DNA of 32,074 nucleotides, taken from assembly GCA_964654735.1 (NCBI GenBank), contig CAZZML010000001.1, positions 1-32,074 of the forward strand, read 5' to 3'. A program made the translations under genes and the position numbers. This document shows positions 1 through 32,074 of the stretch, piece after piece (the stretch's first letter is position 1; the number at the start of each line of letters is the position of its first letter). Source of the stretch: an uncultured Roseivirgaceae bacterium. Lineage in GTDB: Bacteria; Bacteroidota; Bacteroidia; Cytophagales; Cyclobacteriaceae. Below the pieces are notes generated by a model. The model searched no databases, had not been told where the DNA came from, and worked only from the letters and a program-made list of their open reading frames with translations.

Positions 1-17
1 ATTGAGCATAAAAATGG

Positions 18-50: not shown

Positions 51-64
51 GTTAGAAATTAAAC

Positions 65-445: not shown

Positions 446-450
446 AATGC

Positions 451-2880: not shown

Positions 2881-2958
2881 AAGACAAAAATTAAAACCCT
2901 AAATTATAGATAAATAAACTATTCAGCAATTCAATATTTCTTACAAGAATAACTTTAT

Positions 2959-3483: not shown

Positions 3484-3559
3484 CTAGTTAGTTGGTATTT
3501 TTGCATAAAAAATGGGTTACCTACCCTTTAACTAATTGCATCTAATTTGGTGAAATTGA

Positions 3560-3590
3560 TTTGATTAAGCGTAAAATCAACCTATTTTTG
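3560..3590 (+). promoter_or_regulatory. Candidate Bacteroidota sigma-A-type promoter (TTTG-N19-TAnnTTTG) in the upxY-wza leader
   Basis: TTTG at 3560-3563, a 19-nt spacer, then TATTTTTG at 3583-3590, which matches TAnnTTTG exactly. The spacing fits the 19-21 nt described for the Bacteroides -33/-7 consensus. A chance match is plausible in AT-rich DNA. The element overlaps the hairpin at 3569-3599. Confidence 0.3.
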
Positions 3591-3599
3591 ATTTTACGC
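3569..3599 (+). terminator. Perfect 12-bp stem / 7-nt loop hairpin; candidate terminator or attenuator between upxY and wza
   Basis: GCGTAAAATCAA (3569-3580) and TTGATTTTACGC (3588-3599) are exact reverse complements, with loop CCTATTT between them. There is no immediate U-tract (the stem is followed by CTACTCTGCATTTTG), so this is not a canonical intrinsic terminator. Confidence 0.35.
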
Positions 3600-3696
3600 C
3601 TACTCTGCATTTTGTGACTGAGGAGGCGGAGCTGTGCATAATAAAATGAATCGAAATTAGGATTATTTTAATTGACAGAATAGATTAGCTAGAATT

Positions 3697-4494: not shown

Positions 4495-4559
4495 GCAGCA
4501 TGATTGATGCAAAAAACAAACTTTACACTTCATTATACTATCAAAGAAAATTTTATTAA

Positions 4560-6923: not shown

Positions 6924-6926
6924 TCT

Positions 6927-10590: not shown

Positions 10591-10596
10591 ATTAAT

Positions 10597-11700
10597 ATGA
10601 ACATTCCACTCATAAAGCCATTTATTAACCAAGAAATAAAGGATAAAGTCATAGCAGTTTTAGAAAGCGGCTACCTTACCGAAGGGTCTGTAACCAAGGA
10701 ATTTGAAAATAAACTAAAAGCCTATATAGGCTGTAAGCATTTGTTGGCAGTTACTTCCGCAACAACAGGGCTTGAGGTGGCGTTAAGAGCTTTAAAAATT
10801 GGTGTAGGTGACGAAGTTATAGTGCCTGATTATACATATCCAGCAACAGCTGCAGTAGTTCCAATTGTGGGTGCTAAGGCAGTAATTATTGATGTATGTA
10901 AGCAAAACATGTTAATAGATTATGATGCACTTGAAGCTGCTATTACCTCTTACACTAGAGCTATCATACCCGTATCCTTATTTGGGTCGCCACTTGATTA
11001 CGATCGATTAAATAAAATAAAGAAAAAGCATAACATTTACATTATAGAAGATGCCGCATGCTCGATTGGAGCCTCATTTAGCGGAGAAAAAGTTGGAAAC
11101 CAGGCTGATATAACTGTTTTTTCTTTACATCCAAGAAAGTTTATTACTACTGGTGAAGGCGGGGTAATAACTACAAACAATAAAGAATGGGCTAATTGGA
11201 TGAATTCTTATAAGCACTTTGGTATGAATATGAATAACTCTTCAAGAGAAGGTATTGAATTTGATATTATAGGAACGAATTACAAATTATCAAATCTTCA
11301 AGCTGCTGTTGGGTTAGGCCAGCTAAATCATATAAATACACTACTGGCTAAAAGAATAGAGTTGGCAAATAACTACATTCAAATTTTTAACAAAATGGAC
11401 GGTATTAGCCTGCCAACCACACTAGAAAATGGGCAGCATTCTTACCAAACCTTTATTGTTTTTGTAAAGCAAAGAGACCGGGTAATGAAGGAAATGAGAG
11501 CAAAAGGGATTGAAGTGCAAATTGGTACTTACTCGCTGCATATGCACAAAGCTTTTAAAAGCAACGACTTGGTAAGCATTAGTGGGAAAACGAAAAATAG
11601 TGAATGGTGCTATACCCATGCATTGGCTCTTCCGTTATTTAACGACCTCACCAAAGAAACACAACAAATTATAGTACAGGAATTACAACGTTGCCTCTAA
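10597..11700 (+). CDS. Second DegT/DnrJ/EryC1-family PLP-dependent aminotransferase
   Basis: IPLIKP start, AVTSATTGLEVALRAL, EVIVPDYTYPATA, IIEDAACSIGA, and FSLHPRKFITTGEGG containing the PLP lysine. Confidence 0.85.
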   Translation: MNIPLIKPFINQEIKDKVIAVLESGYLTEGSVTKEFENKLKAYIGCKHLLAVTSATTGLEVALRALKIGVGDEVIVPDYTYPATAAVVPIVGAKAVIIDVCKQNMLIDYDALEAAITSYTRAIIPVSLFGSPLDYDRLNKIKKKHNIYIIEDAACSIGASFSGEKVGNQADITVFSLHPRKFITTGEGGVITTNNKEWANWMNSYKHFGMNMNNSSREGIEFDIIGTNYKLSNLQAAVGLGQLNHINTLLAKRIELANNYIQIFNKMDGISLPTTLENGQHSYQTFIVFVKQRDRVMKEMRAKGIEVQIGTYSLHMHKAFKSNDLVSISGKTKNSEWCYTHALALPLFNDLTKETQQIIVQELQRCL

Positions 11701-11701
11701 T

Positions 11702-13603
11702 ATGTGCGGAATATTAGGTCAGTTCAACCTAAATCAAAAACCAGTACATCGAGGTAGTTTTTCTTCTATGCTAAATAAAATAGCCCATCGAGGCCCCGAT
11801 GGAGATGGGATGTATGTTAAAGATTGTATCGGTTTAGGTCATACACGATTAGCTGTTTTAGATACAAGCCAAAAAGGAGCACAACCCATGGCCTCTAAAG
11901 ATGGAAAATGGGTTATTGTGTTTAATGGCTGCATCTATAATTTTTCTGAATTAAAAATGGAACTTAAAGCAAAGGGGCACACATTTACATCTGAAACTGA
12001 TACTGAAGTTATAGCCGAAGGTCTTTCGGCTTATGGGTCTTCTTTTTTCGAGAGGTTAAACGGAATGTTTGCTATTGGCGCATGGAATACAGATACACAA
12101 GAGTTAACTTTAAGCAGAGACAGGTTTGGAATTAAGCCTTTGTATTATTGGTTTAATAACGATGTTATTTGTTTTTCAAGCGAAATTAAGGCTATTATTA
12201 CCCATCCTGACTATGAAATAGATGTTGATTTGGATGCATTGAATGAATATTTCACTTTTCAAAATGTATTTTCTTTTAACACATTATTTAAAGGAGTAAC
12301 TATGTTGCCTCCTGCTAATACAGTTACGGTTACAACAGACTCTCAATTTGTAAAACATGAGTCGTGGTGGGACTATGATTTTACACAACCAGATGAAAAC
12401 ATGTCGTTTGAGTTTGCTAAAACCGAAACCAAAAGACTTTTTGAACAAGCAGTTACCCGCCAAATGATTGCTGATGTTCCTGTAGGTTCTTATCTATCAG
12501 GGGGGATGGATTCCGGTTCTATTACAGCTATTGCCTCTAAACATGTAGATAGGTTATCCACTTTTACATGTGGATTTGATATGAGCGAAGTTACCGGAAG
12601 AGAGACAAATTTTGATGAAAGAAGAGATGCCGAATTAATGGCTAATCATTTTAAAACTGAGCATTTTGAACAGGTAATGAATGCTGGTGACATAAGGTGG
12701 TCATTGCCACGCTTAGTGTATCATTTAGAGGATCTTCGTGTGGGCATGTCATACCCCAATTATTACATTTCAAGGCTAGCCTCTAAGTTTGTAAAAGTAT
12801 GCTTACAAGGTACCGGAGGAGATGAATTGTTTGGAGGGTACCCATGGCGGTATTACAAAGTGTTTGATTCGTTGAATCAAAAACAGTTTTTTGACCAATA
12901 CTATGGTTTTTGGCAGAGATTAGTACCTGATGAAGAGAAAGAAGAGCTGTTTACCGATTTAGTGTATGCTAAAATAGATAAATCAAAGCCTAGAAGAGTT
13001 TTTGAAAATGTATTCAAATTCAATAAAAAACTTAAGTATGATACACCAGAGGAACATATTGGAAACTCACTTTATTTCGAAATTAAAACGTTTTTGCCCG
13101 GTTTATTTTTAATTGGAGATAAATTGGCAATGGCACATGGATTAGAAGAACGCTTTCCTTTTATGGACAATGATTTGGTAGATTTTGCCATGAAAGTACC
13201 TGTAAAACATAAACTTGGTAATTTAAGCAAAGAAATTGATCAAATTGATGAAAATGAAACAGGCGACTCTAAAAAGAAGTTGTCTTACCGCGAATATGAC
13301 GATGGTAAGAATGTACTACGCAAAGCAATGCAAGATTTTATACCTGAATCTATAATTAATAGAAAAAAGCAGGGATTCTCTGCACCCGATGAAAGCTGGT
13401 ACAGAGGTGAAAATGCTGAATATGTTAAGGAATTATTGCTCGGTGATCACCTAGCAAGTTCACCATACATAGATCAGAATTATATTCGAAAAATTGTTCA
13501 CGAACATATTGATGATCAAATCAACCATCGATTATTAATTTGGTCTTTTATGAATTTTGAGTGGTGGTGTAGGATATTTTTAAACAAAGAAAAAGTTGGA
13601 TAG
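11702..13603 (+). CDS. Asparagine synthase (glutamine-hydrolysing) family amidotransferase, locus-embedded paralog
   Basis: MCGILG N-terminal Cys nucleophile of the class II glutamine amidotransferase domain. PP-loop SGGMDSGS in the synthetase domain. Length 633 aa. It starts 1 nt after the previous stop codon. Confidence 0.9.
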
Positions 13604-14090
13604 GCTAATAAAATACTTACGAATAAAACGAGATGAATTAAAAAATAACTTTAATCGCGTTTTACCTGTTGGGGAAATGTTATTTGACCGTTGGGAAAAG
13701 GCCAAATATCTAGGTTTTGGCGAAGGTGCAAGTATTTATGATAGTGCTGTTGTAATTGGTGTTGTTAAGGTAGGGAAAAATACATGGGTTGGGCCAAATA
13801 CAGTACTAGACGGTTCTGGTAAGTTAGCAATTGGTAACAATTGTTCAATATCTGCGGGTGTACAAATTTATAGTCACGATACTGTGAAATGGGCGATTTC
13901 TGGTGGTAAAATGCCTTATGAATATGCGGAAACAGTTATTGAAGACAATTGTTACATTGGACCAAATACAGTTATTGCCAAGGGAGTTAAGATTGAGAAG
14001 GGAGCCGTTGTTGGTGCCAATAGCTTTGTGAAAAGTAATTTTCCTCCAGATAGTAAAATTGCTGGAAACCCTGCTGTACTCATAAAATAA
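13596..14090 (+). CDS. Hexapeptide-repeat acyl/acetyltransferase
   Basis: Left-handed beta-helix repeats ([67 protein letters not shown]). The track start is TTG and overlaps the asnB-like stop by 8 nt. The true start is uncertain, since an internal Met occurs at MLFDRWEK. Confidence 0.75.
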
Positions 14091-15265
14091 TGAGACAGTT
14101 AGAGCCCAATATCTTAAATGCTACTGTTAAAATTTGCACCAATTGCATTTACGATGAGCGTGTAAATGGGATTTCTTTCGATAATAACGGTGTTTGTAAT
14201 TACTGCCGGCAAATAAACTCGTTAATAGAGGAGTATGGAACTGGCGAGAAAAAAGGAGAGCATGTTTTTTTTAATCTAATAGAAAAGATTAAGAAAGATG
14301 GAAGAAATAAAAAGTATGATTGTGTAATAGGAGTAAGTGGAGGAACCGACTCTTCTTACATGCTTTACTTAGCAAAAAAGTGGAAATTAAGACCACTTGC
14401 AGTACACTATGATAATACTTGGAACAGCGCAATTGCCACAGAAAACATACGTAAAGTACTCGGTGCCCTAAATATTGATTTATATACTCATGTTGTAAAT
14501 AACATAGAGGTAGATGATATTTTTAAATCTTTTTTTAAAGCAAGTGTAGCAGAAATAGAAGCTTCAACAGATTTAGCTTTAGCCGAAACTTTGTATCGTG
14601 CAGCAGCTAAACATGGAGTAAAGTATGTGTTTGAGGGGCATTCGTTTGTAACGGAGGGTATAACTCCTGTTGGAAGGAACTACTTTGATGGGAAGTACAT
14701 AAGTTCAATTCATAAAAAATTTGGCACAACTAAAATAAAATCTTATCCATTAATGACGTTTAGTCGTTTTTTATATTGGACAATATTTAAAAGGATTCGA
14801 AAAATAAGACCATTTTGGTATTTAGATTACAATAAAGAAGCAGCTAGAGAGTTTTTAGAAAAAAATTATAACTGGAAGTATTATGGTGGGCATCATTTAG
14901 AAAATAGAATGACGGCATTTTACCATAGCTATTATATGCCAACTAAATTTAATTCAGATTTAAGGAATAATACATTATCTGCCAAAGCGCGGAACAAACA
15001 AATTTCTAGAAAGGATGCTTGGGCCGAGTATAACACAGAACCATTATTAGAAGATGGCTTATTAGATTATTTTAAAAAGAGATTAAAACTATCGGACGAA
15101 CAATTTATGGGTATAATGGCGCGACCTCCTAAGTCTTGGTATGAATACCCTACCTATAAAAAGCGATTTGAATTTTTACGCCCGCTATTTTTTGTGTTGG
15201 CAAAATCTAATTTGGTTCCTATGAGTTTCTACCTTAAGTATTGTTTCCCATCGGTTAAAAATTGA
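14090..15265 (+). CDS. N-acetyl sugar amidotransferase (WbuX/WbpG/LfnA type, PP-loop ATPase)
   Basis: N-terminal Cys-rich element (CTNCIYDERVNGISFDNNGVCNYCRQ) followed by the PP-loop GVSGGTDSSYMLYLA. It lies immediately upstream of hisH/hisF paralogs, which is the characteristic arrangement for this family. TAATGA stop/start junction. Confidence 0.85.
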   Translation: MRQLEPNILNATVKICTNCIYDERVNGISFDNNGVCNYCRQINSLIEEYGTGEKKGEHVFFNLIEKIKKDGRNKKYDCVIGVSGGTDSSYMLYLAKKWKLRPLAVHYDNTWNSAIATENIRKVLGALNIDLYTHVVNNIEVDDIFKSFFKASVAEIEASTDLALAETLYRAAAKHGVKYVFEGHSFVTEGITPVGRNYFDGKYISSIHKKFGTTKIKSYPLMTFSRFLYWTIFKRIRKIRPFWYLDYNKEAAREFLEKNYNWKYYGGHHLENRMTAFYHSYYMPTKFNSDLRNNTLSAKARNKQISRKDAWAEYNTEPLLEDGLLDYFKKRLKLSDEQFMGIMARPPKSWYEYPTYKKRFEFLRPLFFVLAKSNLVPMSFYLKYCFPSVKN

Positions 15266-15269
15266 GTAA

Positions 15270-15878
15270 ATGATAACAATTATAGACTATGGGGTGGGCA
15301 ATTTAGGTTCTGTTTATAATATGTTTAAAAGAATTGGAGTAAAATCAAAAATTACTTCGGATAGGGCTGAAATTGAAAATGCAACGAAGCTATTGCTTCC
15401 GGGCGTTGGTTCGTTTGATTATGCTATGAACAAGTTGAACTCGTCAGGTATTCGAAAAACGTTAGATGCAAAAGTACTGGAAGATAAAGTACCTGTTCTT
15501 GGAATTTGCCTTGGTATGCAGTTATTAACCCATGGAAGTGAAGAAGGAACAGAAAAAGGCTTGGGTTGGATAGAGGCAGACACCATCAAATTTATTCCTA
15601 CCGATAACACTGTAAAAGTACCCCATATGGGGTGGAATGTTGTGCAGCCCTCTACAGCAAGTGAATTAACCAGAAAACTTCCATTAGACTCTCGGTTCTA
15701 TTTTGTTCATTCATATTATGTAAAGGTAAAAAGTCAAGCAAATTCTATTTTAAAAACTAAGTATGCACTTGAATTTGATTCTGCCATACAGCACGATAAC
15801 ATATTTGGGGTTCAGTTTCACCCTGAGAAAAGCCATAAATATGGCATGAAACTCTTCGAAAATTTTTCTAAATTATAG
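15270..15878 (+). CDS. hisH: Imidazole-glycerol-phosphate-synthase-like glutaminase subunit (HisH paralog of LPS/capsule loci)
   Basis: ITIIDYGVGNLGSV start, catalytic Cys in GICLGMQLL, His/Glu in QFHPEKS. Length about 200 aa. Confidence 0.9.
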   Translation: MITIIDYGVGNLGSVYNMFKRIGVKSKITSDRAEIENATKLLLPGVGSFDYAMNKLNSSGIRKTLDAKVLEDKVPVLGICLGMQLLTHGSEEGTEKGLGWIEADTIKFIPTDNTVKVPHMGWNVVQPSTASELTRKLPLDSRFYFVHSYYVKVKSQANSILKTKYALEFDSAIQHDNIFGVQFHPEKSHKYGMKLFENFSKL

Positions 15879-15880
15879 CA

Positions 15881-16642
15881 TTGCTCCGAACCAGGGTTAT
15901 ACCGTGTTTACTACTAAGAGAAGATGCCTTGGTAAAAACTATAAAGTTTAAAAAATACAACTACATAGGTGATCCTGAAAATACCGTTCGAATTTTTAAT
16001 GAACTTGAAGTAGATGAACTGGTTTTTTTAGATATTTTAGCGAGCAAAACAAATCAAAAAATAAAGTTTAATACGCTTAAAAATATTGCGGCCGAAGCAT
16101 TTATGCCACTGGCGTATGGAGGTGGAATACGAACGTTTGAAGAGGCAAAAAAAATTCTTTCCATTGGGTATGAAAAGCTGATTATAAATTCAAGCGCAGT
16201 CGAAAGCCCTGAGTTTATTACTGAATTATCTATGCACTTTGGAAATCAGAGTATTATTGGGTCTATTGATGTAAAAAAGAATTTTTTTGGAAAGTATAAA
16301 GTTGTAACTCATGGTGCTTCAAAAAAAACAGGGTTAGACCCTGTAGAGTGGGCAGTAGAATTGGAAAAAAGGGGAGTAGGCGAATTGCTCATTACCTCGG
16401 TAGATAAAGAAGGAACCTGGAATGGATATGATGTGGAGTTAATCAAGCAGATTTCTAAACATGTTACCGTTCCAGTGGTGGCAAATGGAGGGGCTGCTAG
16501 TGTAGAGAACATTCAAGAGGTTGTCAAAGTTGGAGGAGCTTCAGCAGCTGCAGTGGGCAGCATGGTAGTTTATCAAAAAAAGGGGTACGGGGTATTGGTC
16601 AATTTTCCTGATAATTCGGAATTAGAAAAGTTATTGGAATGA
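15881..16642 (+). CDS. hisF: HisF-like cyclase subunit (HisF2/AglZ-type acetamidino modification protein)
   Basis: RVIPCLLL, DELVFLDI, YGGGIRTFEEAK, and VANGGAAS ... AAAVGSMVVY, all typical of the HisF (beta/alpha)8 barrel. The TTG start at 15881 is forced: an in-frame TAA at 15869-15871 precedes it and no ATG or GTG lies between. Confidence 0.9.
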   Translation: MLRTRVIPCLLLREDALVKTIKFKKYNYIGDPENTVRIFNELEVDELVFLDILASKTNQKIKFNTLKNIAAEAFMPLAYGGGIRTFEEAKKILSIGYEKLIINSSAVESPEFITELSMHFGNQSIIGSIDVKKNFFGKYKVVTHGASKKTGLDPVEWAVELEKRGVGELLITSVDKEGTWNGYDVELIKQISKHVTVPVVANGGAASVENIQEVVKVGGASAAAVGSMVVYQKKGYGVLVNFPDNSELEKLLE

Positions 16643-17352
16643 AAAAGCTTAAATGGACTTTTGATTATATAAAAGATGAATATCAAGTGCTAAAAAATAA
16701 CGGATACTCATTTATTACGTGTGAAGATTACTATTTGAAAAAATATAACTTGAAAAGCAAGACCGTTGTGAATAGGGTAGATATTGATTTTTCGTTAAAA
16801 AAAACGGATGTGCTATTAGATATTTTTGAAGAATTGGAGATCAAAGCATCATTTTTTTTAAGACTTCATGCTCCTGAATATAACCCGTTTTCTTTTGAAT
16901 CTTACCGAATTATAAAACGATTAATAGCAAACGGGCACGAGTTAGGCTACCATTCTGAAATAATAGACCAAGCCGTTATATGGAATGAAGAACCTGAAAA
17001 CTGTTTAATTCGTGATATACAAGTAATGGAAAAAGCGTTTGAAATTAGGGTGAAAGGTGTAGCCAGCCATGGAGGCAATACAGGTTTAAATAATTTAGAG
17101 TTTTGGAAAGACAAGAAGGCTTTGGATTATGGACTTTTGTATGAAGCCTATGACCATCAACCAGCATTTAATCTGTTTCAGGAAGCTTTTTATATTTCAG
17201 ATTCTGAATGGACACAATGGAAGTGTTATAATAAAGGAAAACTACTTGTAAATGATAGACGCTCACCGTCAGAACATTCTTTAAGCGGTCATAACCTAAT
17301 TCATTTATTAATTCATCCTGACACCTATTATAACCGGCATATTTATGAATAG
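16639..17352 (+). CDS. Polysaccharide-deacetylase-like (NodB/CE4-like) protein, divergent
   Basis: NRVDIDFSLKKTDVLLDIFEELEIKASFFL resembles CE4 motif 1 and the following strand. GHELGYHSE resembles the His motif. GVASHGG occurs downstream. The canonical TFDD and RxPY motifs are not evident, so this call is tentative. ATGA overlap with hisF. Confidence 0.4.
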   Translation: MKKLKWTFDYIKDEYQVLKNNGYSFITCEDYYLKKYNLKSKTVVNRVDIDFSLKKTDVLLDIFEELEIKASFFLRLHAPEYNPFSFESYRIIKRLIANGHELGYHSEIIDQAVIWNEEPENCLIRDIQVMEKAFEIRVKGVASHGGNTGLNNLEFWKDKKALDYGLLYEAYDHQPAFNLFQEAFYISDSEWTQWKCYNKGKLLVNDRRSPSEHSLSGHNLIHLLIHPDTYYNRHIYE

Positions 17353-18301
17353 TGTTTTGGGTAAAAAAGGTAAGTTTGATGAGGTCGATGAATTTATCTT
17401 TTTAAATGATTTAAATCAACACCTGATTGAATTTGACAGAAAATTATTAAGAAATAGCCTAACTGAGCAATACCCTAATGTTTTTTTATTCGGTCTTCCA
17501 CGGTCAGGCACAACTATGCTATCGCAGGTTTTATATAATAACCTAAATATTTCTACTTTTAATAACTTGGCAGCGCGTTTTTGGGATGCACCACTCGTAG
17601 GATTACATTTTTCTAACACAGTATTAAAAAAGGATAAAAAAGATAACTATACTTCAAATTTTGGCTCAACAATGGATATGAATTCACCCCATGAGTTTTC
17701 CTATTTTTGGAGAAAGCACTTGCTGGTAGATGAATTGCTAGAAAGCTTAGATGTGGCTAAAGTTGGCAATAGTATAAACTGGCAAAGGCTATTTAAATAT
17801 TTAATAAATTTTAATCATATAAATAGATCACCTTTTGTTTATAAAACAATGGAATATACGGGTTTATACATTGATTATTTTTTAAAATATTTTAGTAAGT
17901 CATATTTTATTTATATTCAAAGAGATTACTTATCTGTAGCTAAATCCATTTATAGTGCTTGGGTTTTAAATACAACAGGAAAGAACGATTGGTGGGGAAG
18001 TGCTCCTCTGGAGTATAGAAAGTTAATGGGTTTGCCATTGGTGGATAAAGTTGTTGGCCAGATGTACTACTTGGATAAAATGTATAAGATAGCTTTAAAT
18101 AAAATTCCGGACAATAGACTTATTAAGGTACAGTACACTGACTTGTGCCAACATCCTAATGATTTATTGATGAAAATTAATGACTTAATAAAAATCCCTG
18201 TTCTTTCTTCTCCATCTAGTTTTGAAATCTCAAATTCATCAGTTGATAAAAATATAGAGCAAAGGATTGTTGAACTGTTAAAAATATATAAATTATCATG
18301 A
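17345..18301 (+). CDS. Sulfotransferase-family protein (PAPS-dependent type)
   Basis: 5-prime-phosphosulfate-binding loop LPRSGTTMLSQVL and a 3-prime-phosphate-binding-like motif IQRDYLSVAKS (the R-D-x-x-x-x-x-x-S pattern). Length about 320 aa. It overlaps the upstream gene by 8 nt. Confidence 0.7.
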   Translation: MNSVLGKKGKFDEVDEFIFLNDLNQHLIEFDRKLLRNSLTEQYPNVFLFGLPRSGTTMLSQVLYNNLNISTFNNLAARFWDAPLVGLHFSNTVLKKDKKDNYTSNFGSTMDMNSPHEFSYFWRKHLLVDELLESLDVAKVGNSINWQRLFKYLINFNHINRSPFVYKTMEYTGLYIDYFLKYFSKSYFIYIQRDYLSVAKSIYSAWVLNTTGKNDWWGSAPLEYRKLMGLPLVDKVVGQMYYLDKMYKIALNKIPDNRLIKVQYTDLCQHPNDLLMKINDLIKIPVLSSPSSFEISNSSVDKNIEQRIVELLKIYKLS

Positions 18302-19014
18302 ATTATTTATATGCACTACACCAGCCTGACTTTATGCCTTGGTTAGGGTTTTTTGACAAAATGAACAAAGTTGATAACTATATAGTTTTTGATAATGTTT
18401 ATATAACCACAGGAAAATCTTGGTCAAATCGAGTTAAAATTTTACTAAATAATAAAGAGTATTGGCTTACAATTCCAATAAGTAGGTCAGGTATTAGTAA
18501 TAAACCAATATATGAAGTAGAATTAAATCAGCCGGAGAGAAATTTTTCCAAATTGTTAAAAACGATTCGACAGGCTTATTTGAAGCACCCCTTTTTTAAA
18601 GAGGTCTTTCCATTTATAGAAGAACTTAGGTTAGAAAGAGAACTCAGGTTATCAGAGGTTAATGCCAAATTTAACACTAAAATGTATGAAAAAATTTTTG
18701 GCCGAAGCAAAAACATACTTTTTGCCTCTGATGTGGCAGGTTTAAGAAACATAGATAAATTTAAAACAGATATGATTATTAAAGTATGCAATAATTTTGA
18801 TGTTGAAAACTATTTATCTGGTGAAGGATGTTTGAGTTTTTTAGAAACTGAACAATTTAGAGAAAATGGAATAAACATATCGTTTCAAAATTTTGAACCG
18901 CCAGTTTATCCTCAGTATAGGAATAATGAGTCATTTGTGTCAGGATTATCAATTATTGATGCCTTAATGAATATTGGTTTTGAAGGGACAAAACAATTAC
19001 TTGACAGGAAATAG
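18298..19014 (+). CDS. WbqC-like family protein (LPS/capsule-locus protein of unknown biochemical function)
   Basis: The N-terminus LHQPDFMPWLGFFDKMNKVDNYIVFDNV resembles the WbqC-family signature (QP-aromatic-aromatic-P-aromatic-x-G-aromatic-F). Length about 240 aa. ATGA overlap with the sulfotransferase. Confidence 0.65.
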   Translation: MNYLYALHQPDFMPWLGFFDKMNKVDNYIVFDNVYITTGKSWSNRVKILLNNKEYWLTIPISRSGISNKPIYEVELNQPERNFSKLLKTIRQAYLKHPFFKEVFPFIEELRLERELRLSEVNAKFNTKMYEKIFGRSKNILFASDVAGLRNIDKFKTDMIIKVCNNFDVENYLSGEGCLSFLETEQFRENGINISFQNFEPPVYPQYRNNESFVSGLSIIDALMNIGFEGTKQLLDRK

Positions 19015-26635: not shown

Positions 26636-28777
26636 ATGAAACAAATCCTCCAATCCTTTAAAACAGGCCAAACTATACTGGAAGAAATTCCTGAACCGAT
26701 GGTATCAGGCAAAAAGGTACTTATCCGAACATCTAAGAGCTTGATTTCTTTAGGTACCGAACGAATGTTGGTAGGTTTTGGAAAGGCAAGTTATTTAGAA
26801 AAAGCACGCCAGCAACCTGATAAGGTAAAAATGGTGCTGGATAAGGTAAAAACAGATGGTTTAATGCTTACCATTGCCTCTGTAAAGAATAAGCTTGACC
26901 AACCAATTCCTTTAGGTTATAGTAATGTTGGTGTGGTTAATGCTATTGGAAATTCTGTAGCTAAATTTAAAATAGGAGATAGGGTGGTATCAAATGGTGC
27001 CCACGCAGAGGTAGTCTCAATTGGTGAAAACCTGATGGCTAAAATTCCGGACAATGTAACCGATGAAGAAGCTACCTTTACTGTAATCGGAGCAATTGCT
27101 TTGCAGGGAATTCGATTGGCCAACCCTACCTTTGGTGAAACCATTGTTGTACAGGGCTTAGGCTTAATTGGTTTAATAGCTTGCCAGTTATTAAAAGCCA
27201 ATGGCTGCAAGGTAATTGGAATTGATCCCGATAAATCGAAATGCGACCTTGCTTCAGGGTTTGGAGTACAATCCATTCACTTAGGAAAAGGCTCTCCTGT
27301 TGAAAAAATACTGACATCAACAAATAATGTAGGTGTAGATGCTGTACTAATTACGGCCTCGGCTTCAACAGATGAAATTGTATCACAAGCAGCTCAAATG
27401 AGCCGAAAACGAGGGCGAATAGTATTAGTAGGTGTAGTTGGTTTAAAGCTAAATAGGGCTGAATTTTATGAAAAAGAGCTGTCATTTCAAGTATCTTGTT
27501 CGTATGGGCCGGGCAGGTATGATAACCGGTATGAGGGGCAAGGAATAGACTACCCTATTGGTTTTGTTCGATGGACAGAACAACGAAATTTTGAAGCTGT
27601 TTTAGAAGCTATGCGCACAGGAACCTTGGATGTTAAGCCATTAATTACTCAGAAAGTGCCTTTTGAGAAAGTAGTAGAGGTGTATGATACCATTGAAGGA
27701 TCATCTTCTATTGCTACTATTATTGAGTATCCTATTTCAAAAGTGGAAAAATGTAATACAATTCGACTAAATAATGCAAAATTTGAGAAATCTGATGGAG
27801 TAATTGGCTTAATTGGAGCAGGTAATTTTGCTAAAATGACCATGTTGCCTGTATTAAAAAAAACAGGAGCACAAATGAAATACATTGCTTCTTCGGGTGG
27901 TGTTTCGGGTACCCATTTAGCTAAAAAATTTGGTATAGCTCATTCAACTACCGATTATTCAACCATTTTAAAAGATAAAGATGTAAAGCTGGTAATCATA
28001 ACAACCCAGCATAATATGCATGCTTCAATGGTTACCAAAGTGCTTAAATCGAAAAAGCATGTGTTTGTAGAAAAACCTTTGGCTATTAATGAAGAGCAAC
28101 TCAATAATATACATAAGGTTATGGGAGATTCAGAAGGACTTACATTAACCGTTGGATTCAATAGAAGATTTTCGCCATCAATTCAGAAAATAAAAAGTTT
28201 GGTGGGAGAAAATCCTGACACTATGAACATTACCGCTACTATGAATGCAGGTGCAATTCCTCAAAATTCGTGGGTGCAGGATATGGAGCGAGGAGGAGGA
28301 AGAATTATTGGCGAAGCCTGTCATTTTATTGACTTGATGGTGTATATAACAGGGAGTAAGGTAGCATCTGTTTGTATGAATGCAATGGGATTAGATGCTA
28401 CATCAAGTACAGATAATGCCAGCATTTTATTAAAATTTGAAAATGGCTCCAATGGAGTAATTAATTATTTCTCTAACGGCAGTAAAAGTTACGCTAAAGA
28501 GCGTGTTGAAGTTTATCAAGAAGGAAAAACGTTAGTGATGGACAATTTCAGAGTGCTCAAAGGTTACGGATATAAAGGATTTAATAAGTTAACAACTAAG
28601 CAAGATAAAGGTCATAATAAGCAGTTTGAACTGCTTATTAAATCTTTAGAAAATGGAGGGCAACCCTTGATTCCTTATAATGAAATTTACAACGTCTCCA
28701 AAGCGAGTATCTTAGCTGTGGAATCTCTTAAAATTGGAGCTTGGGTTAGTTTAACAATGGACAGATTGCTTCCCTAA
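26636..28777 (+). CDS. Bi-domain oxidoreductase: N-terminal MDR/zinc-type alcohol-dehydrogenase-like domain fused to a C-terminal Gfo/Idh/MocA domain
   Basis: N-terminal half: GYSNVGVV, GDRVVSNGAHAE, and Rossmann VQGLGLIGLIACQLLKANGCKVIGID. C-terminal half: IGLIGAGNFAKMTMLPVLKK, VFVEKPLAI (EKP motif), FNRRFSP. The final codons (MDRLLP-stop) lie inside repeat copy 1. Confidence 0.85.
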   Translation: MKQILQSFKTGQTILEEIPEPMVSGKKVLIRTSKSLISLGTERMLVGFGKASYLEKARQQPDKVKMVLDKVKTDGLMLTIASVKNKLDQPIPLGYSNVGVVNAIGNSVAKFKIGDRVVSNGAHAEVVSIGENLMAKIPDNVTDEEATFTVIGAIALQGIRLANPTFGETIVVQGLGLIGLIACQLLKANGCKVIGIDPDKSKCDLASGFGVQSIHLGKGSPVEKILTSTNNVGVDAVLITASASTDEIVSQAAQMSRKRGRIVLVGVVGLKLNRAEFYEKELSFQVSCSYGPGRYDNRYEGQGIDYPIGFVRWTEQRNFEAVLEAMRTGTLDVKPLITQKVPFEKVVEVYDTIEGSSSIATIIEYPISKVEKCNTIRLNNAKFEKSDGVIGLIGAGNFAKMTMLPVLKKTGAQMKYIASSGGVSGTHLAKKFGIAHSTTDYSTILKDKDVKLVIITTQHNMHASMVTKVLKSKKHVFVEKPLAINEEQLNNIHKVMGDSEGLTLTVGFNRRFSPSIQKIKSLVGENPDTMNITATMNAGAIPQNSWVQDMERGGGRIIGEACHFIDLMVYITGSKVASVCMNAMGLDATSSTDNASILLKFENGSNGVINYFSNGSKSYAKERVEVYQEGKTLVMDNFRVLKGYGYKGFNKLTTKQDKGHNKQFELLIKSLENGGQPLIPYNEIYNVSKASILAVESLKIGAWVSLTMDRLLP

Positions 28778-28790
28778 GTTCGCAATAACG
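28751..28790. repeat. Intergenic repeat family, copy 1 (overlaps the last 9 codons and the stop of the oxidoreductase gene)
   Basis: ttaacaatggacAGATTGCTTCCCTAAGTTCGCAATAACG. It matches copy 3 at 33 of 40 positions, aligned by eye. The core contains ATTGC ... GCAAT inverted 5-mers. Confidence 0.8.
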
Positions 28791-28797
28791 TTCCATT

Positions 28798-28836
28798 CCG
28801 CCATCATGAAGCCCCACATCTACCGCCATCACGAGG
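28798..28836. repeat. Pair of 14-nt direct repeats CCGCCATCAYGARG
   Basis: CCGCCATCATGAAG at 28798-28811 and CCGCCATCACGAGG at 28823-28836. They are 12 of 14 identical, and both differences are transitions. Confidence 0.7.
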
Positions 28837-28872
28837 GAAGTATGACCGAAGTGATCTGATCTTAGAAAACTA

Positions 28873-28907
28873 AATGAACAGGTTACTTCGCTGCGCTCGT
28901 AATGACG
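28873..28907. repeat. Intergenic repeat family, copy 2 (most diverged)
   Basis: aatgaacAGGTTACTTCGCTGCGCTCGTAATGACG. The 28-nt core matches copies 1 and 3 at 20 of 28 positions each. The inverted 5-mers change in a compensatory way (GTTAC ... GTAAT). Confidence 0.65.
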
Positions 28908-28947
28908 TTAATAATGGAGAGATTGCCTCACTACGTTCGCAATGACA
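28908..28947. repeat. Intergenic repeat family, copy 3
   Basis: ttaataatggagAGATTGCCTCACTACGTTCGCAATGACA, in the same orientation as copies 1 and 2. Confidence 0.8.
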
Positions 28948-28969
28948 ATAACAGTTCATAACATTTTCA

Positions 28970-30847
28970 ATGCTTAAAAAACTAACCACCTACCTAAAAA
29001 TTACCCAACAAATGGGCATAAGGTATATGGCGTTTCGGGTTTCGTATGAACTAAAAAAGAAAACAGGGTTATTCAAAAAGAAATTTCCCATACGAATTTC
29101 TGATATTTCTGTCCCATCTTTACCAGAATGGCACAAGAATCAAACACCATTTTTTCAATGGAATTTTGATAAATTTCCTGAGTTAGATAGAGATGATATA
29201 ACAAAGCTATCTAAACGAGTTGATAATTTAAAGAAAGGAAAAATAGAACTCTTTGGAGGAAAGACATATTCAACTCCTTTAAATGAATGGCATATAAACC
29301 CATTAACCGGGTATGAGTATAGTAAAATAACGCATTGGAGCAAAATTCCAGAATTTACCAAAGAAGCAGGCGACATAAAATACGTATGGGAAAAAGCAAG
29401 GTTTAGCTGGGTATATAGTTTTATTCGTTATGATAAACACGCAAGTCAGGACTCTTCAAAATTTATTTTCGATTCAATTGAATCATTTATTGACCAAAAC
29501 CCTATTAACCAAGGCCCCAATTACATCTGTAGCCAGGAAATATCTTTACGCATATTAAACTGGGTGTTTGCCTTGTATTATTACAAACATTCAGAAGCAT
29601 TGGATGAAGGCAAGTTTCATAAAATTTTGACTTCCATTAATGCGCAGATAGATCATGTGTATTCAAATATAAATTTTTCACGGATAGCTGTTCGTAATAA
29701 CCATGCCCTAACAGAAACCCTAACGCTATACCTGACAGGCCTTTTATTTCCATTTTTCCCCAATGCTAAAAAATGGAAAACAGAAGGAAAAAAATGGTTT
29801 GAAAAAGAGATAGAGTATCAAATTTATGATGATGGTTCGTACTTGCAATATTCTATGAACTACCACCGGGTAGTAGTGCAACTACTCACCTGGGCTTTTA
29901 CACTAGCTAAAAATAGTGGAGAAGAGTTTAACCCCGTAGTTTACGAAAAAGCAAAGAAAAGTGTAACCTTCTTAGAAGGGTGCCAAGATACTGTTTCCGG
30001 ACAGTTGCCTCATTATGGATCCAATGATGGAGCCTTGTTTTTTCCATTAAATAATTTAGAATATCGCAATTACACTCCTCAATTAAATGCGTTAAAGTCG
30101 AGCTTAAATATTCCTGTATCTGCTAAAAACGATTTGTTTGAAGATTGTTTTTGGTACGGGCTTATTACTGAAATTGCTAAAGATGAAATTGCTGATAAAA
30201 GTACCTCTTTCCAATTTAAAGTGGGTGGGTACTATGTATGGAAAGAGCCGGATTCTCTCACTTTTTTGAGGTGTGGTTCACACAAAAACCGGCCTTCTCA
30301 AGCGGATAATTTACACCTCGATTTATGGGTAAATGGCCTAAACATTTTACGAGATAGTGGAACTTACCTCTATAATGGTTCTACAGATGAAGTGGCTTAT
30401 TATAATAGTACCAGAGCACATAATACTGTTCAGGTAGGTGACGAAGACCAAATGAGGAGAGGAGATAGGTTTATTTGGTTTAATTGGTCAAAAGCAGTTA
30501 AAGTAGTAATAGAAGAAACTGATGATTTTTGGCAATTTAAAGGAACTATTTTGGCATTTGATAATTTAGAATTGTTGCGCAGTGTAAAGAAATATAAAAA
30601 CCAGATGGTTTGGGAGATAGAAGATGAGATTCACAATAAACCCAAGGATAAACTAATGCATCAACATTGGCATCCTAATGCTACTAATATGTTCATTACT
30701 TGTAAAAATGAGATAGGCAGTAAAATCAAAGCAATTGAGACACATGGATGGCTTGCACCTAATTATGGCAAGTCAATTACTTCACCCATACTAACATTTA
30801 CTACTCAAGGGAGTTTTTTATCTACACGAATAGAAGTTACCGGCTAG
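28970..30847 (+). CDS. Heparinase II/III-like family protein (alginate-lyase-like alpha-toroid plus heparinase II/III beta-sandwich), no signal peptide
   Basis: NHALTETLTLYLTG in the central region. C-terminal SHKNRPSQADNLHLDLWVNG and RAHNTVQV resemble the heparinase II/III domain signature. The N-terminus MLKKLTTYLKITQQMGIRYMAFRVSYELKKK is neither a signal peptide nor a lipobox. Confidence 0.8.
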   Translation: MLKKLTTYLKITQQMGIRYMAFRVSYELKKKTGLFKKKFPIRISDISVPSLPEWHKNQTPFFQWNFDKFPELDRDDITKLSKRVDNLKKGKIELFGGKTYSTPLNEWHINPLTGYEYSKITHWSKIPEFTKEAGDIKYVWEKARFSWVYSFIRYDKHASQDSSKFIFDSIESFIDQNPINQGPNYICSQEISLRILNWVFALYYYKHSEALDEGKFHKILTSINAQIDHVYSNINFSRIAVRNNHALTETLTLYLTGLLFPFFPNAKKWKTEGKKWFEKEIEYQIYDDGSYLQYSMNYHRVVVQLLTWAFTLAKNSGEEFNPVVYEKAKKSVTFLEGCQDTVSGQLPHYGSNDGALFFPLNNLEYRNYTPQLNALKSSLNIPVSAKNDLFEDCFWYGLITEIAKDEIADKSTSFQFKVGGYYVWKEPDSLTFLRCGSHKNRPSQADNLHLDLWVNGLNILRDSGTYLYNGSTDEVAYYNSTRAHNTVQVGDEDQMRRGDRFIWFNWSKAVKVVIEETDDFWQFKGTILAFDNLELLRSVKKYKNQMVWEIEDEIHNKPKDKLMHQHWHPNATNMFITCKNEIGSKIKAIETHGWLAPNYGKSITSPILTFTTQGSFLSTRIEVTG

Positions 30848-32074
30848 TGCGGATTTTACTTATTCATCAGTATTTTTTAGAAAAGGACGACCCGGGAGGC
30901 TCACGTTTTAATGAGATGGCTCAATTGTGGACAGGGCAAGGGCATGAAATAGTAGTGATTTGTGGGATGCTCAACTATGTAACCGGTAAAATACCCAAAA
31001 AGTACAAAGGCAAACGCTTTGATGTGAGTTATTATAATGCAAAGTTAAAAGTGCACAGAGCTTATGTAAGTAGTGGGTATAATAGTAGTTTTTTTGGCCG
31101 GCTTTGGGCATATTTTTCGTTTGTATGGTTTGGAACATGTGCTGGCCTCAAGGAAAGGAAAAATTTTGATATTATTTTAGCTACATCTCCTCCACTTTTT
31201 ATTGGGATAATTGCTATGGTTTTATCTCAGATAAAAAGAATAAAGTTTGTGTTTGAAGTGCGAGATTTATGGCCTGAGTCCGCTATTGAAACAGGAGTAG
31301 TAACTAATAAGCTAATTATTAAATTGAGTTATTGGCTTGAGAAAAAAATATATAAAAAAGCATTTTTAATTAATGTATTAACTCCAGCGTTCAAATCAGT
31401 TTTAGTATCTAAAAAAAATATACCAAATAGTAAACTATTTATGATTCCCAATGCTTCAGATTTTAATGGTTCTGAAAAAGCTTTAAGATCAAAAAAATAC
31501 TTGAAAATTAAAAACGAGTTGAATCTACATAATTGCCTTTCGGTAATCTATATTGGAGCTCATGGGGTTGCCAATCATTTAGATCAGGTATTAGATGCTG
31601 CAATACTACTTAAAAATGAAGGGGTGCGATTTATTTTAGTTGGAGATGGAATGGATAAAAATAGGTTAGTAAAACGTGTTGAAAAAGAGCAAATTGCAAA
31701 TATTGAATTTGTGGATCCTGTTCCCAAAGAAGAGGTTTACAATTATATACTAGCTTCTGATATAGGAATTTCTGTTCTTAAAAATGTGACTACATTTAAA
31801 ACCGTTTATTCCAACAAAACATTTGATTATATGGCTTGTAAAAAGCCCGTAATTATGGCTATTGATGGAGTTTCTAAAGAACTTATTCAAACGGCCAATT
31901 CCGGGTTATTTGCAGAACCTGAAAATGCAGATGCCATTGCTAATCAAATTTTAGTCTATAAAAACGACAAAGAATTGTTATATAAACATGGCCATAATGG
32001 CTATGTTTATGCCAAGTCTCATTTCGACAGAGTAAAGTTGAGTAAAGAATATATGAAAGAGATAAATGAAAAAT
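30847..32074 (+). CDS. WbuB-like glycosyltransferase family 4, partial (3-prime end runs off the window; not in the supplied ORF track)
   Basis: I translated this frame by hand from GTG 30847, which shares one base with the upstream TAG. It is open for 409 codons to the window end. The translation reads VRILLIHQYFLEKDDPGGSRFNEMAQLWTGQGHEIVVICG ... TSPPLFIGIIAMVLSQIKRIKFVFEVRDLWPESAIETG ... GAHGVANHLDQVLDAA ... FILVGDGMDK ... NKTFDYMACKKPVIMAIDG. This is the typical WbuB-type GT4 pattern. Confidence 0.8.
   Translation, partial: MRILLIHQYFLEKDDPGGSRFNEMAQLWTGQGHEIVVICGMLNYVTGKIPKKYKGKRFDVSYYNAKLKVHRAYVSSGYNSSFFGRLWAYFSFVWFGTCAGLKERKNFDIILATSPPLFIGIIAMVLSQIKRIKFVFEVRDLWPESAIETGVVTNKLIIKLSYWLEKKIYKKAFLINVLTPAFKSVLVSKKNIPNSKLFMIPNASDFNGSEKALRSKKYLKIKNELNLHNCLSVIYIGAHGVANHLDQVLDAAILLKNEGVRFILVGDGMDKNRLVKRVEKEQIANIEFVDPVPKEEVYNYILASDIGISVLKNVTTFKTVYSNKTFDYMACKKPVIMAIDGVSKELIQTANSGLFAEPENADAIANQILVYKNDKELLYKHGHNGYVYAKSHFDRVKLSKEYMKEINEK

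What the first reader, a model, noticed from the sequence alone, without database searches (positions are those of the whole stretch)
26636..32074. Bi-domain oxidoreductase, leaderless heparinase II/III-like protein and WbuB-like GT4: a lyase-fold protein inside a biosynthetic operon
A 625-aa protein with heparinase II/III family signatures (NHALTETL, ADNLHLDLWVNG, AHNTVQV) lies in the same strand run. It sits between a fused MDR-dehydrogenase/Gfo-Idh-MocA oxidoreductase and a glycosyltransferase whose start shares a base with its stop codon. It has neither a signal peptide nor a lipobox, so it is predicted to be cytoplasmic. That location does not fit a degradative polysaccharide lyase. Polysaccharide lyases and uronyl C5-epimerases share the C5 proton-abstraction chemistry and related folds. 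A biosynthetic role is therefore plausible, for example epimerisation or 4,5-elimination on a nucleotide- or lipid-linked uronate. From memory this three-gene arrangement recurs in other surface-glycan loci, but I know of no assigned function. I cannot verify that recollection here.
Basis: partly seen in the sequence, partly recalled or inferred. Interest (0 to 1): 0.6.

Follow-up and report, generated by a model that had tools for sequence, protein, structure and literature searches.

The report
Cytoplasmic lyase-fold sugar-acid epimerase cassette
The "heparinase-like" gene, the fused two-domain oxidoreductase before it and the glycosyltransferase after it are one more copy of a widespread, biochemically untested cassette that most likely makes a rare L-configured amino-sugar acid (probably L-GalNAcA) inside the cell and adds it to a capsule repeat unit, rather than degrading anything.

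Summary
At 26636-32074 there are three genes:
- a 713-aa MDR + Gfo/Idh/MocA fusion (OR);
- a 625-aa Hepar_II_III N+C protein (HEP) with no export signal;
- a WcaI/WbuB-like GT4 whose GTG start shares one base with the HEP stop. The GT4 is cut by the contig end.

The arrangement recurs. In 80 species genomes the GT4 is the next gene in 61 of 72 loci, and the OR lies within 10 kb upstream in 46 of 57. WecB often sits between OR and HEP, and a PglC/D/E/F bacillosamine module usually follows.

The same cassette lies in the Ralstonia solanacearum EPS-I operon (OR 50.6% identical). EPS-I is made of GalNAc, galactosaminuronic acid and bacillosamine. The disaccharide alpha-L-GalNAcA-(1->3)-D-Bac recurs in many bacterial glycans.

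The HEP model (pLDDT 93.9) matches heparinase III (Z 25.5) and also human dermatan-sulfate epimerase 1 (Z 19.5). The Asn-His, Tyr-His and His motifs are kept.

Best reading (about 0.58): HEP is a uronate C5-epimerase, the OR inverts C3, and together they give UDP-L-GalNAcA from UDP-ManNAcA. No step has been shown biochemically.

Acinetobacter gnlA/gnlB (WeeE/WeeF) were already postulated for this sugar. This scan has flagged the same cassette on other DNA several times. I class it as a new member of a known, uncharacterised kind.

The parts
26636..28777 (+). Bi-domain oxidoreductase (GnlA/WeeE-like by inference). The N-terminal MDR domain lacks the catalytic-Zn ligands. The C-terminal domain is Gfo/Idh/MocA.
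   Evidence: Pfam and NCBIfam. It is 50-63% identical to orthologues next to HEP in 62 other loci, including Ralstonia at 50.6%. 170 of 713 positions are at least 97% invariant, including G174xG176xxG179, G394AG396, E479-K480-P481 and H563/D566. S/T-E and Y95 stand where Zn-ADHs have Cys and His-Glu (read directly).
28751..28946 (.). Three copies of a dispersed short repeat that fill the OR-HEP gap. The first copy supplies the last ~8 codons and the stop of the OR.
   Evidence: the repeat finder family D1. The 27-nt core has 22 matches in the genome against 0 for the reversed control. In relatives the OR-HEP gap is mostly -14 to +34 nt.
28970..30847 (+). Cytoplasmic heparinase II/III-fold (PL12-like) protein, proposed uronate C5-epimerase (GnlB/WeeF-like by inference). 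The start may instead be 29012.
   Evidence: Pfam. PDB sequence hits to heparinase III, E 5e-13. AF2 pLDDT 93.9. Structural matches: 4fnv Z 25.5 and 6hzn (DS-epi1) Z 19.5. Invariant N244, H245, E249, Y298, R300, D446, H449, D451, H484 and N485, all identical in the Ralstonia EPS-I homologue.
30847..32073 (+). GT4 glycosyltransferase (WcaI/WbuB-like), the proposed transferase for the L-sugar acid. It is truncated by the contig end.
   Evidence: Pfam and NCBIfam. An orthologue (45-57% identical) is the next gene after HEP in 61 of 72 loci.
11702..13603 (+). AsnB-type amidotransferase. It may amidate the uronate carboxyl. Association is loose.
   Evidence: Pfam. Orthologues sit directly upstream of the OR in several related loci (cluster 12).
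14090..16642 (+). PP-loop (WbpG-like) protein plus HisH plus HisF, an acetamidino-forming trio by analogy. Association is loose.
   Evidence: Pfam. The same trio lies directly upstream of the OR in at least 9 related loci.

Best explanation
The three genes are the core of a conserved cytoplasmic module that makes and installs an L-configured N-acetyl-hexosaminuronic acid, most likely L-GalNAcA.

Proposed route (inferred):
1. WecB and WecC, both present in this genome on other contigs, give UDP-D-ManNAcA.
2. The heparinase-fold protein uses the lyase machinery (Asn-His to neutralise the carboxylate, Tyr/His as base and acid) to remove H5. Because O4 carries no leaving group, it re-protonates from the other face. 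This is C5 epimerisation to the L-gulo configuration.
3. The bi-domain oxidoreductase inverts C3 by oxidation at the Gfo/Idh/MocA domain and reduction from the opposite face at the Zn-less MDR domain. This gives UDP-L-GalNAcA. The net change is a 3,5-epimerisation, analogous to GDP-Man to GDP-L-Gal.
4. The WcaI/WbuB-like GT4 transfers the sugar onto an Und-PP-linked bacillosamine-type first sugar made by a PglC/D/E/F module.

Shown here: gene content, fold, conserved residues, synteny, and the match to the Ralstonia EPS-I operon.
Inferred: every chemical step, the order of steps, and whether the substrate is the nucleotide sugar or the lipid-linked glycan.
For: 1. Location. There is no export signal, and the N-terminal helices are part of the fold.

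2. Synteny. In the order OR-(WecB)-HEP-GT4-PglC-PglD-PglE-PglF, the GT4 is the next gene in 61 of 72 loci and the OR lies within 10 kb upstream in 46 of 57. WecB lies between OR and HEP in 21 loci. Gaps are mostly -4 to +30 nt. In an even sample of the phylum, 8 of 11 loci carry the full triad.

3. Ralstonia. The eps operon carries wecB, wecC..., OR (50.6% identical over 711 aa), HEP, GT4, a PglC-like transferase, an acetyltransferase, DegT and CapD, with 4-nt overlaps. EPS-I consists of GalNAc, galactosaminuronic acid and bacillosamine derivatives (PMC12846841, PMC3759889). The motif alpha-L-GalNAcA-(1->3)-D-Bac recurs in the glycans of GMI1000 and of several other bacteria (PMC11200240).

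4. Prior postulate. gnlA/gnlB (WeeE/WeeF) were postulated for UDP-L-GalNAcA (PMC9676051).

5. Fold. Heparinase III gives Z 25.5. Human dermatan-sulfate epimerase 1, a genuine C5-epimerase, gives Z 19.5 with 503 aligned residues.

6. Residues. 22 key residues are identical in the window HEP and the Ralstonia HEP despite 28% overall identity. N-H, Y-H and H-N align with the heparinase III motifs.

7. Both OR domains are strongly constrained.

8. The own genome holds WecB (C702), WecC (C658, 534 bits against a cut-off of 459) and a contig that starts with PglE/PglD and later PglF (C108).
Against: - No enzyme of this cassette has been assayed, as far as I could find.
- The link to L-GalNAcA rests on gene-glycan correlation in one organism tested here (Ralstonia) plus literature statements.
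- Whether WeeE/WeeF belong to the same families was not tested here.
- Several loci have HEP+GT4 with no OR within 10 kb (L040, L094, L096, L108, L113, L118). Runella species carry a 46-47% identical HEP among unrelated genes, with no GT4 or OR. HEP can therefore work without the OR, and perhaps on another substrate.
- WecB and WecC of this genome lie on tiny unlinked contigs, and the locus is cut inside the GT4.
- Nothing in the sequence separates an epimerase from a lyase. The Zn-less MDR domain could equally be an enoate reductase.
Confidence: 0.58

Rival explanations
1. Same product, different substrate level. The GT4 transfers D-ManNAcA first. HEP (with the OR) then epimerises the residue on the Und-PP-linked oligosaccharide at the cytoplasmic face, as polymer-level epimerases do (DS-epi1, Glce, AlgG).
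For: All characterised lyase-fold or uronyl C5-epimerases act on glycan-bound residues (PMC12624080 discussion; the DS-epi1 match). HEP has a long open cleft-type fold like endo-lyases. The basic amphipathic N-terminal helix, more hydrophobic in some homologues, could hold it at the membrane. HEP is coupled to the GT4 more tightly than to the OR.
Against: WbuB/WcaI-like GT4s linked to L-sugar modules are generally read as taking the finished L-sugar nucleotide (from general knowledge). The OR's nearest solved relatives act on small soluble sugars. There is no direct evidence either way.
Confidence: 0.2
2. Different chemistry. HEP carries out a true 4,5-elimination on an activated or 4-O-substituted uronate. 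The Zn-less MDR domain reduces the resulting enoate and the Gfo domain adjusts a hydroxyl. The product is a 4-deoxy or otherwise unusual uronic acid, or an L-sugar acid other than L-GalNAcA (L-GulNAcA, L-AltNAcA).
For: The full lyase catalytic set is kept. The MDR domain lacks the Zn ligands and also hits enoyl- and quinone-reductase families. HEP occurs without the OR in some loci. By stereochemical reasoning, C5 epimerisation alone would give L-GulNAcA.
Against: The only cassette-bearing organism checked here whose glycan composition I could confirm from papers (Ralstonia EPS-I) contains galactosaminuronic acid and no deoxy-uronate. No activating kinase or acyltransferase is consistently linked.
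Confidence: 0.12
3. HEP is a genuine polysaccharide lyase that trims or recycles the capsule polymer, in the way AlgL, PslG or BcsZ are encoded in biosynthetic operons. Alternatively it is a cytoplasmic oligo-uronate lyase for salvage.
For: Pfam, NCBIfam and structure all place it nearest heparinase III. Cytoplasmic exo-lyases exist (Atu3025, PL15). Degradative enzymes inside biosynthetic operons are a known theme.
Against: In a Wzx/Wzy pathway the polymer exists only outside the cytoplasm, and HEP has no export signal. It is inherited with sugar-synthesis genes and a GT, not with Wza/Wzc or uptake genes. It is only 16-18% identical to true lyases and forms its own large clade.
Confidence: 0.05

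Closest known systems
Ralstonia solanacearum eps (EPS-I) operon: 714-aa 'Gfo/Idh/MocA family oxidoreductase', 'heparinase II/III-family protein', GT4 (e.g. CP056086.1 HWE47_18350-18360)
   Same: Same gene order and coupling. The OR is 50.6% identical over its full length. The HEP is 28% identical with all 22 key residues the same. The GT4 is 29% identical. It is followed by a PglC-like transferase, an acetyltransferase, DegT and CapD.
   Different: It belongs to a different phylum and to the more distant HEP subtype. wecB and wecC are in the same operon there, but on separate small contigs here. No gene of the Ralstonia trio has been characterised biochemically, to my knowledge.
Acinetobacter gnlA/gnlB (= WeeE/WeeF of the A. 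venetianus RAG-1 emulsan cluster), postulated UDP-L-GalNAcA module (PMC9676051)
   Same: A two-gene module postulated for the sugar I infer here, in a Wzx/Wzy capsule locus. gnlB also occurs alone in one K locus, as HEP does here in some loci.
   Different: The lead came from earlier notes of this scan.
Heparinase III / PL12 lyases (4FNV, 4MMH, 5JMD)
   Same: Two-domain (alpha/alpha)-toroid plus beta-sandwich fold, Z 22.7-25.5. The Asn-His, Tyr-His and His-Asn motifs align.
   Different: Only 16-18% identical. It has no signal peptide and sits in a biosynthetic locus, not a PUL. It carries family-specific invariant residues (R300, H449, D451) where heparinase III differs.
Human dermatan sulfate epimerase 1 (6HZN)
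   Same: The same lyase-type fold used for C5 epimerisation of a uronate: Z 19.5, 503 aligned residues, rmsd 4.0. It is the precedent for the proposed chemistry.
   Different: 12% identity. It is a eukaryotic, lumenal, polymer-level enzyme. Residue-by-residue equivalence of the catalytic His/Tyr/His was not established here.
FnlA/FnlB/FnlC plus WbuB (UDP-L-FucNAc pathway)
   Same: The logic is the same. A D-gluco/manno UDP-HexNAc is converted to an L-galacto-configured sugar, and a WbuB/WcaI-like GT4 encoded next door transfers it. A WecB-family 2-epimerase is part of the set.
   Different: Unrelated enzymes (SDR dehydratase/epimerase/reductase). The product there is 6-deoxy rather than a 6-carboxylate.

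Membership tests
Heparinase II/III (Pfam Hepar_II_III_N + Hepar_II_III_C; PL12-like fold) | Both Pfam domains above their gathering scores | tested here: met
   67.6 bits (cut-off 22) and 84 bits (cut-off 24)
Heparinase II/III (Pfam Hepar_II_III_N + Hepar_II_III_C; PL12-like fold) | Toroid plus beta-sandwich fold matching solved PL12 enzymes | tested here: met
   4fnv Z 25.5, rmsd 3.4, 514 aligned
Heparin-sulfate lyase HepC (functional lyase, NCBIfam equivalogs) | Score above the equivalog cut-off | tested here: not met
   68.6 bits against 700, and 54.3 bits against 600
Heparin-sulfate lyase HepC (functional lyase, NCBIfam equivalogs) | Export signal, giving a periplasmic or extracellular location | tested here: not met
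   No hydrophobic h-region or lipobox. The frame cannot be extended upstream. The N-terminus is part of the fold. SignalP was not available.
Heparin-sulfate lyase HepC (functional lyase, NCBIfam equivalogs) | Beta-elimination activity on a polyuronide | not testable with these tools
   Needs an enzyme assay
OR-HEP-GT4 cassette (Ralstonia eps type; postulated UDP-L-GalNAcA module gnlA/gnlB) | Orthologous bi-domain OR adjacent to HEP | tested here: met
   The window OR is 50.6% identical to the Ralstonia OR and 51-63% identical to the 62 other ORs in the alignment, Ralstonia included
OR-HEP-GT4 cassette (Ralstonia eps type; postulated UDP-L-GalNAcA module gnlA/gnlB) | GT4 immediately downstream of HEP | tested here: met
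   1-base overlap here. It is the next gene in 61 of 72 related loci.
OR-HEP-GT4 cassette (Ralstonia eps type; postulated UDP-L-GalNAcA module gnlA/gnlB) | Bacillosamine-type module (PglC/D/E/F) following the GT4 | tested here: inconclusive
   The contig ends inside the GT4. Own-genome contig C108 starts with PglE-like and PglD-like genes and also carries a PglF-like gene, but linkage is unproven and no small PglC-type gene was found.
OR-HEP-GT4 cassette (Ralstonia eps type; postulated UDP-L-GalNAcA module gnlA/gnlB) | Sequence homology to WeeE/WeeF (GnlA/GnlB) themselves | not tested
   The sequences could not be reached with the tools. The only source is a literature statement (PMC9676051).
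OR-HEP-GT4 cassette (Ralstonia eps type; postulated UDP-L-GalNAcA module gnlA/gnlB) | L-GalNAcA present in the organism's glycan | not testable with these tools
   The organism is an uncultured MAG, and no structure is known
Lyase-fold uronyl C5-epimerases (DS-epi1 type) | Shared fold | tested here: met
   6hzn_A Z 19.5, 503 aligned residues; Foldseek E 2.6e-13
Lyase-fold uronyl C5-epimerases (DS-epi1 type) | Equivalent catalytic His/Tyr/His and epimerase activity | tested here: inconclusive
   His245, Tyr298 and His484 are conserved, but they were not mapped residue by residue onto DS-epi1. Activity cannot be tested here.
Glce-type D-glucuronyl C5-epimerase (Pfam C5-epimerase) | Pfam match to that family | tested here: not met
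   Not among the Pfam hits at E <= 0.001

The most novel reading that the evidence does not exclude
The heparinase-fold protein would be the first bacterial, cytoplasmic, cofactor-free uronate C5-epimerase built on a PL12 lyase scaffold, acting on a UDP-sugar or an Und-PP-linked sugar. Together with a redox-neutral two-domain C3-inverting oxidoreductase, it would define a new 3,5-epimerisation route (UDP-D-ManNAcA to UDP-L-GalNAcA). This would close a long-open gap in the biosynthesis of a sugar found in Pseudomonas, Ralstonia, Vibrio and Acinetobacter surface glycans.
Probability: 0.45. Interest if true: 0.7.

Novelty: new member of a known kind. Interest (0 to 1): 0.42.

Why it matters
L-GalNAcA and related L-hexosaminuronic acids occur in O-antigens, capsules and exopolysaccharides of important plant and human pathogens and of environmental bacteria. 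I found no report of an enzymatically demonstrated route to them.

This cassette is the obvious candidate. It is very widespread: about 1,277 50%-identity clusters at E <= 1e-30. It would also show a polysaccharide-lyase scaffold recruited for biosynthetic epimerisation in bacteria, in parallel with animal dermatan-sulfate epimerase.

For annotation, it means that 'heparinase II/III family protein' or 'alginate lyase family protein' calls inside glycan loci should not be read as degradative CAZymes. This particular window adds one more example and no new principle.

Tried and rejected
I built the neighbourhood survey instead from the genome search, the fetch from genomes and the search for related loci.
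A 10-sequence alignment worked.
- Literature searches for heparinase together with WbuB, with O-antigen or with asparagine synthase found nothing relevant. All ten paper searches are used.
- I could not obtain the WeeE/WeeF or gnlA/gnlB sequences. The supplement search, the A. venetianus papers and the listing of cluster members on ten distant representatives gave no Acinetobacter names.
- I recall that the P. aeruginosa PA14 (O10/O19, L-GalNAcA) O-antigen locus is annotated with a 'zinc-binding dehydrogenase', a 'heparinase' and a GT. I could confirm only the glycan structure (PMC2997053), not the genes.
- I tried to use the more distant 660-770-aa Bacteroidota homologues (L013-L027) as a secreted contrast set. 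They too lack signal peptides, so they give no contrast.
- Model coordinates are not exposed to the script box, so active-site distances could not be measured.
- The Glce-type epimerase family was considered and rejected, as there is no Pfam hit.
- The AlgL-type periplasmic lyase role was rejected on localisation.


Full report
**What is there**

The window is a whole 32-kb contig of a fragmented genome (703 contigs, 87.7% complete). GC is about 34%.

It carries one long plus-strand capsule or O-antigen locus of the Wzx/Wzy type:
- UpxY/NusG-like, Wza and Wzc genes;
- a WbpB/E/D-like set (Gfo, DegT, hexapeptide transferase), an SDR epimerase and a second DegT;
- AsnB;
- a PP-loop (WbpG-like) protein with HisH and HisF;
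- a weak deacetylase-like ORF, a sulfotransferase and WbqC;
- Wzx and a likely Wzy;
- a methyltransferase, two GT4s and an acetyltransferase.

The last three genes are the finding:
- a 713-aa fusion of an MDR-type dehydrogenase with a Gfo/Idh/MocA oxidoreductase (OR, 26636-28777);
- a 625-aa protein with both heparinase II/III Pfam domains (HEP, 28970-30847);
- a GT4 whose best NCBIfam hit is the WcaI family (30847-32073, cut by the contig end).

**Location of HEP**

The N-terminus is basic and amphipathic and has no hydrophobic core or lipobox. Its maximum 10-residue hydropathy is 0.64, against a median of 0.96 across 92 homologues. The reading frame can extend only six codons upstream.

In a confident AlphaFold model (pLDDT 93.9, pTM 0.94), residues 2-38 form helices that belong to the fold. 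Many homologues start at the position of Met15. The protein is therefore cytoplasmic or peripherally membrane-associated. SignalP and LipoP could not be run.

**Fold and active site of HEP**

By sequence, the nearest solved proteins are heparinase III enzymes (E 5e-13). By structure:

| Match | Z | rmsd / aligned |
|---|---|---|
| Heparinase III, 4FNV | 25.5 | 3.4 A / 514 residues |
| PL35, PL15 and PL17 lyases | about 20-21 | |
| Human dermatan-sulfate epimerase 1 (6HZN) | 19.5 | 4.0 A / 503 residues |

The fold therefore has a proven precedent for C5 epimerisation rather than cleavage.

In a 44-sequence alignment reaching down to 28% identity, N244, H245, E249, Y298, R300, D446, H449, D451, H484 and N485 are invariant or nearly so. 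The N-H, Y-H and H-N motifs align with those of heparinase III, whereas R300, H449 and D451 are specific to this family. The proton-abstraction machinery is thus intact. Sequence alone cannot say whether the outcome is elimination or reprotonation.

**The oxidoreductase**

Both nucleotide-binding motifs are invariant (G174xGxxG179 and G394AG396), as are the Gfo-type E479-K480-P481 and H563/D566. In total, 170 of 713 positions are at least 97% conserved over 63 sequences, including Ralstonia.

The MDR half lacks the catalytic-zinc ligands (read directly). Its database neighbours include both dehydrogenases and enoyl or quinone reductases. The Gfo half is nearest to inositol, anhydrofructose and glycoside-3 dehydrogenases, which oxidise ring secondary alcohols.

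**Recurrence**

The HEP family is large: 1,277 clusters (50% identity) at E <= 1e-30. It is patchy within the phylum, found in 27 of 401 sampled genomes, as expected for a serotype-specific gene.

I took 11 loci from an even sample of the phylum and 80 loci from named species genomes. I called ORFs, clustered them and annotated cluster representatives. The recurrent order is OR - (WecB) - HEP - GT4 - PglC-like - PglD-like - PglE-like - PglF-like.

Counts:
- the GT4 is the next gene in 61 of 72 loci with enough sequence;
- the OR lies within 10 kb upstream in 46 of 57 loci, and is the directly preceding gene in 24;
- a bona fide WecB (308 bits against a cut-off of 210) lies between OR and HEP in 21 loci;
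- intergenic gaps are mostly -4 to +30 nt.

An AsnB amidotransferase, or the PP-loop/HisH/HisF trio, often sits just upstream of the OR, and both are present in this window.

There are two HEP subtypes, window-like (about 45-50% identical) and Ralstonia-like (about 28-33%). Both occur with the same OR and GT4 types, which suggests they are interchangeable.

**Link to a known glycan**

A protein search of plasmids hit 132 Ralstonia megaplasmids. There the cassette sits in the eps (EPS-I) operon:
- a tyrosine kinase, wecB, wecC, a transporter, a polymerase-like gene, a GT4 and an acyltransferase;
- then a 714-aa oxidoreductase, the heparinase-family protein and a GT4;
- then a small sugar transferase, an acetyltransferase, DegT and CapD.

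The Ralstonia OR is 50.6% identical to the window's OR over 711 residues. All 22 key HEP residues are identical.

EPS-I is built from N-acylated galactosamine, galactosaminuronic acid and bacillosamine (PMC12846841, PMC3759889). PMC11200240 notes that alpha-L-GalNAcA-(1->3)-D-Bac recurs in glycans of R. solanacearum GMI1000, R. pickettii, Vibrio vulnificus, Rheinheimera and Alteromonas, and in P. aeruginosa O3-type antigens. That disaccharide mirrors the gene adjacency [OR-HEP-GT4][PglC-F].

Cahill et al. (PMC9676051) named the Acinetobacter homologues of WeeE/WeeF gnlA/gnlB, 'postulated' to make UDP-L-GalNAcA. I could not test whether these are the same families. The gnlAB and Ralstonia leads came from earlier notes of this scan. 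I verified the Ralstonia lead here.

**Proposed mechanism (inference)**

D-ManNAcA differs from L-GalNAcA at C3 and C5. WecB and WecC supply UDP-ManNAcA, and both exist in this genome on small contigs C702 and C658.

The proposed steps are:
1. HEP abstracts H5, alpha to the carboxylate, and reprotonates from the other face.
2. The OR oxidises C3 in one domain and reduces from the other face in the second domain, which recycles the nicotinamide cofactor.
3. The GT4 transfers the product to Und-PP-Bac.

Own-genome contig C108 begins with PglE-like and PglD-like genes and also carries a PglF-like gene, so it is a plausible continuation of the locus. The AsnB and acetamidino genes may further modify the same residue.

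**Caveats**

- No step has been shown biochemically.
- HEP+GT4 occur without an OR in several loci.
- Runella species keep a 46-47% identical HEP among unrelated genes: DUF5606/6852, a transaldolase-CBS protein, a radical-SAM protein and TolB/OmpA-like proteins.
- The substrate level (UDP-sugar or lipid-linked glycan) is open, and so is an elimination/reduction route.

**Verdict**

The cassette is already postulated in the literature and has been flagged repeatedly by this scan on other DNA. This window is therefore a new member of a known but uncharacterised kind. Interest is moderate. The interest lies in the untested enzymology, not in this locus.

Noticed in passing
window 28751-28946: The 192-nt OR-HEP gap is filled by three copies of a 27-39-nt dispersed repeat (core AGATTGCYTCNCTANGTTCGCAATRAC). 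It has 22 copies in this genome against 0 for the reversed control, often in facing pairs. The first copy provides the OR's last ~8 codons and its stop, replacing the tight coupling seen in relatives.
   Followed up: partly
window 16639-19014: A weak polysaccharide-deacetylase-like ORF (E 4e-4), a Sulfotransferase_3 protein and a WbqC-family protein lie in the same operon. The capsule may therefore be sulfated. Another first-stage note on this genome read this as a glycosaminoglycan-like maturation toolkit.
   Followed up: no
L043, L028, L055, L105 (Runella spp.), HEP at about 10001-11965: Runella species carry a 46-47% identical HEP with no GT4 or OR nearby. It is flanked by DUF5606/DUF6852, a transaldolase-CBS protein, a radical-SAM protein and two TolB/OmpA-like proteins. 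This is an orphan context that the cassette model does not explain.
   Followed up: partly
L069 (Arcobacter sp. MAG, Campylobacterota): A HEP 47% identical and an OR 57% identical to the Bacteroidota window proteins occur in a Campylobacterota MAG, as close as most Bacteroidota relatives. This suggests inter-phylum transfer of the cassette, or a mis-binned contig.
   Followed up: no
P0245 and cluster members (937 aa): There is a fused form of the HEP family. A 937-aa protein that JGI names 'asparagine synthase (glutamine-hydrolysing)' matches HEP residues 11-568 within its residues 16-592. This hints at a functional link between HEP and uronate amidation or acylation.
   Followed up: no
own genome contig C108 (L143) 1-7789: The contig starts, open at its 5' end, with a PglE-like aminotransferase (56% identical to the one downstream of the cassette in relatives). 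A PglD-like acetyltransferase follows, and a PglF-like dehydratase lies further on. It is a probable continuation of this locus beyond the contig break. No small PglC-type transferase was found in the assembly.
   Followed up: partly
L028-L038 against the window: HEP evolves much faster than its partners, or exists as two subtypes. Loci with an OR 59-61% identical and a GT4 52-56% identical to the window's can carry a HEP only 28-30% identical (L034, L035, L037).
   Followed up: partly
window 451-2880 (-): A penicillin-amidase-family protein (809 aa, Pfam E 3e-198) is transcribed divergently just upstream of the capsule locus.
   Followed up: no
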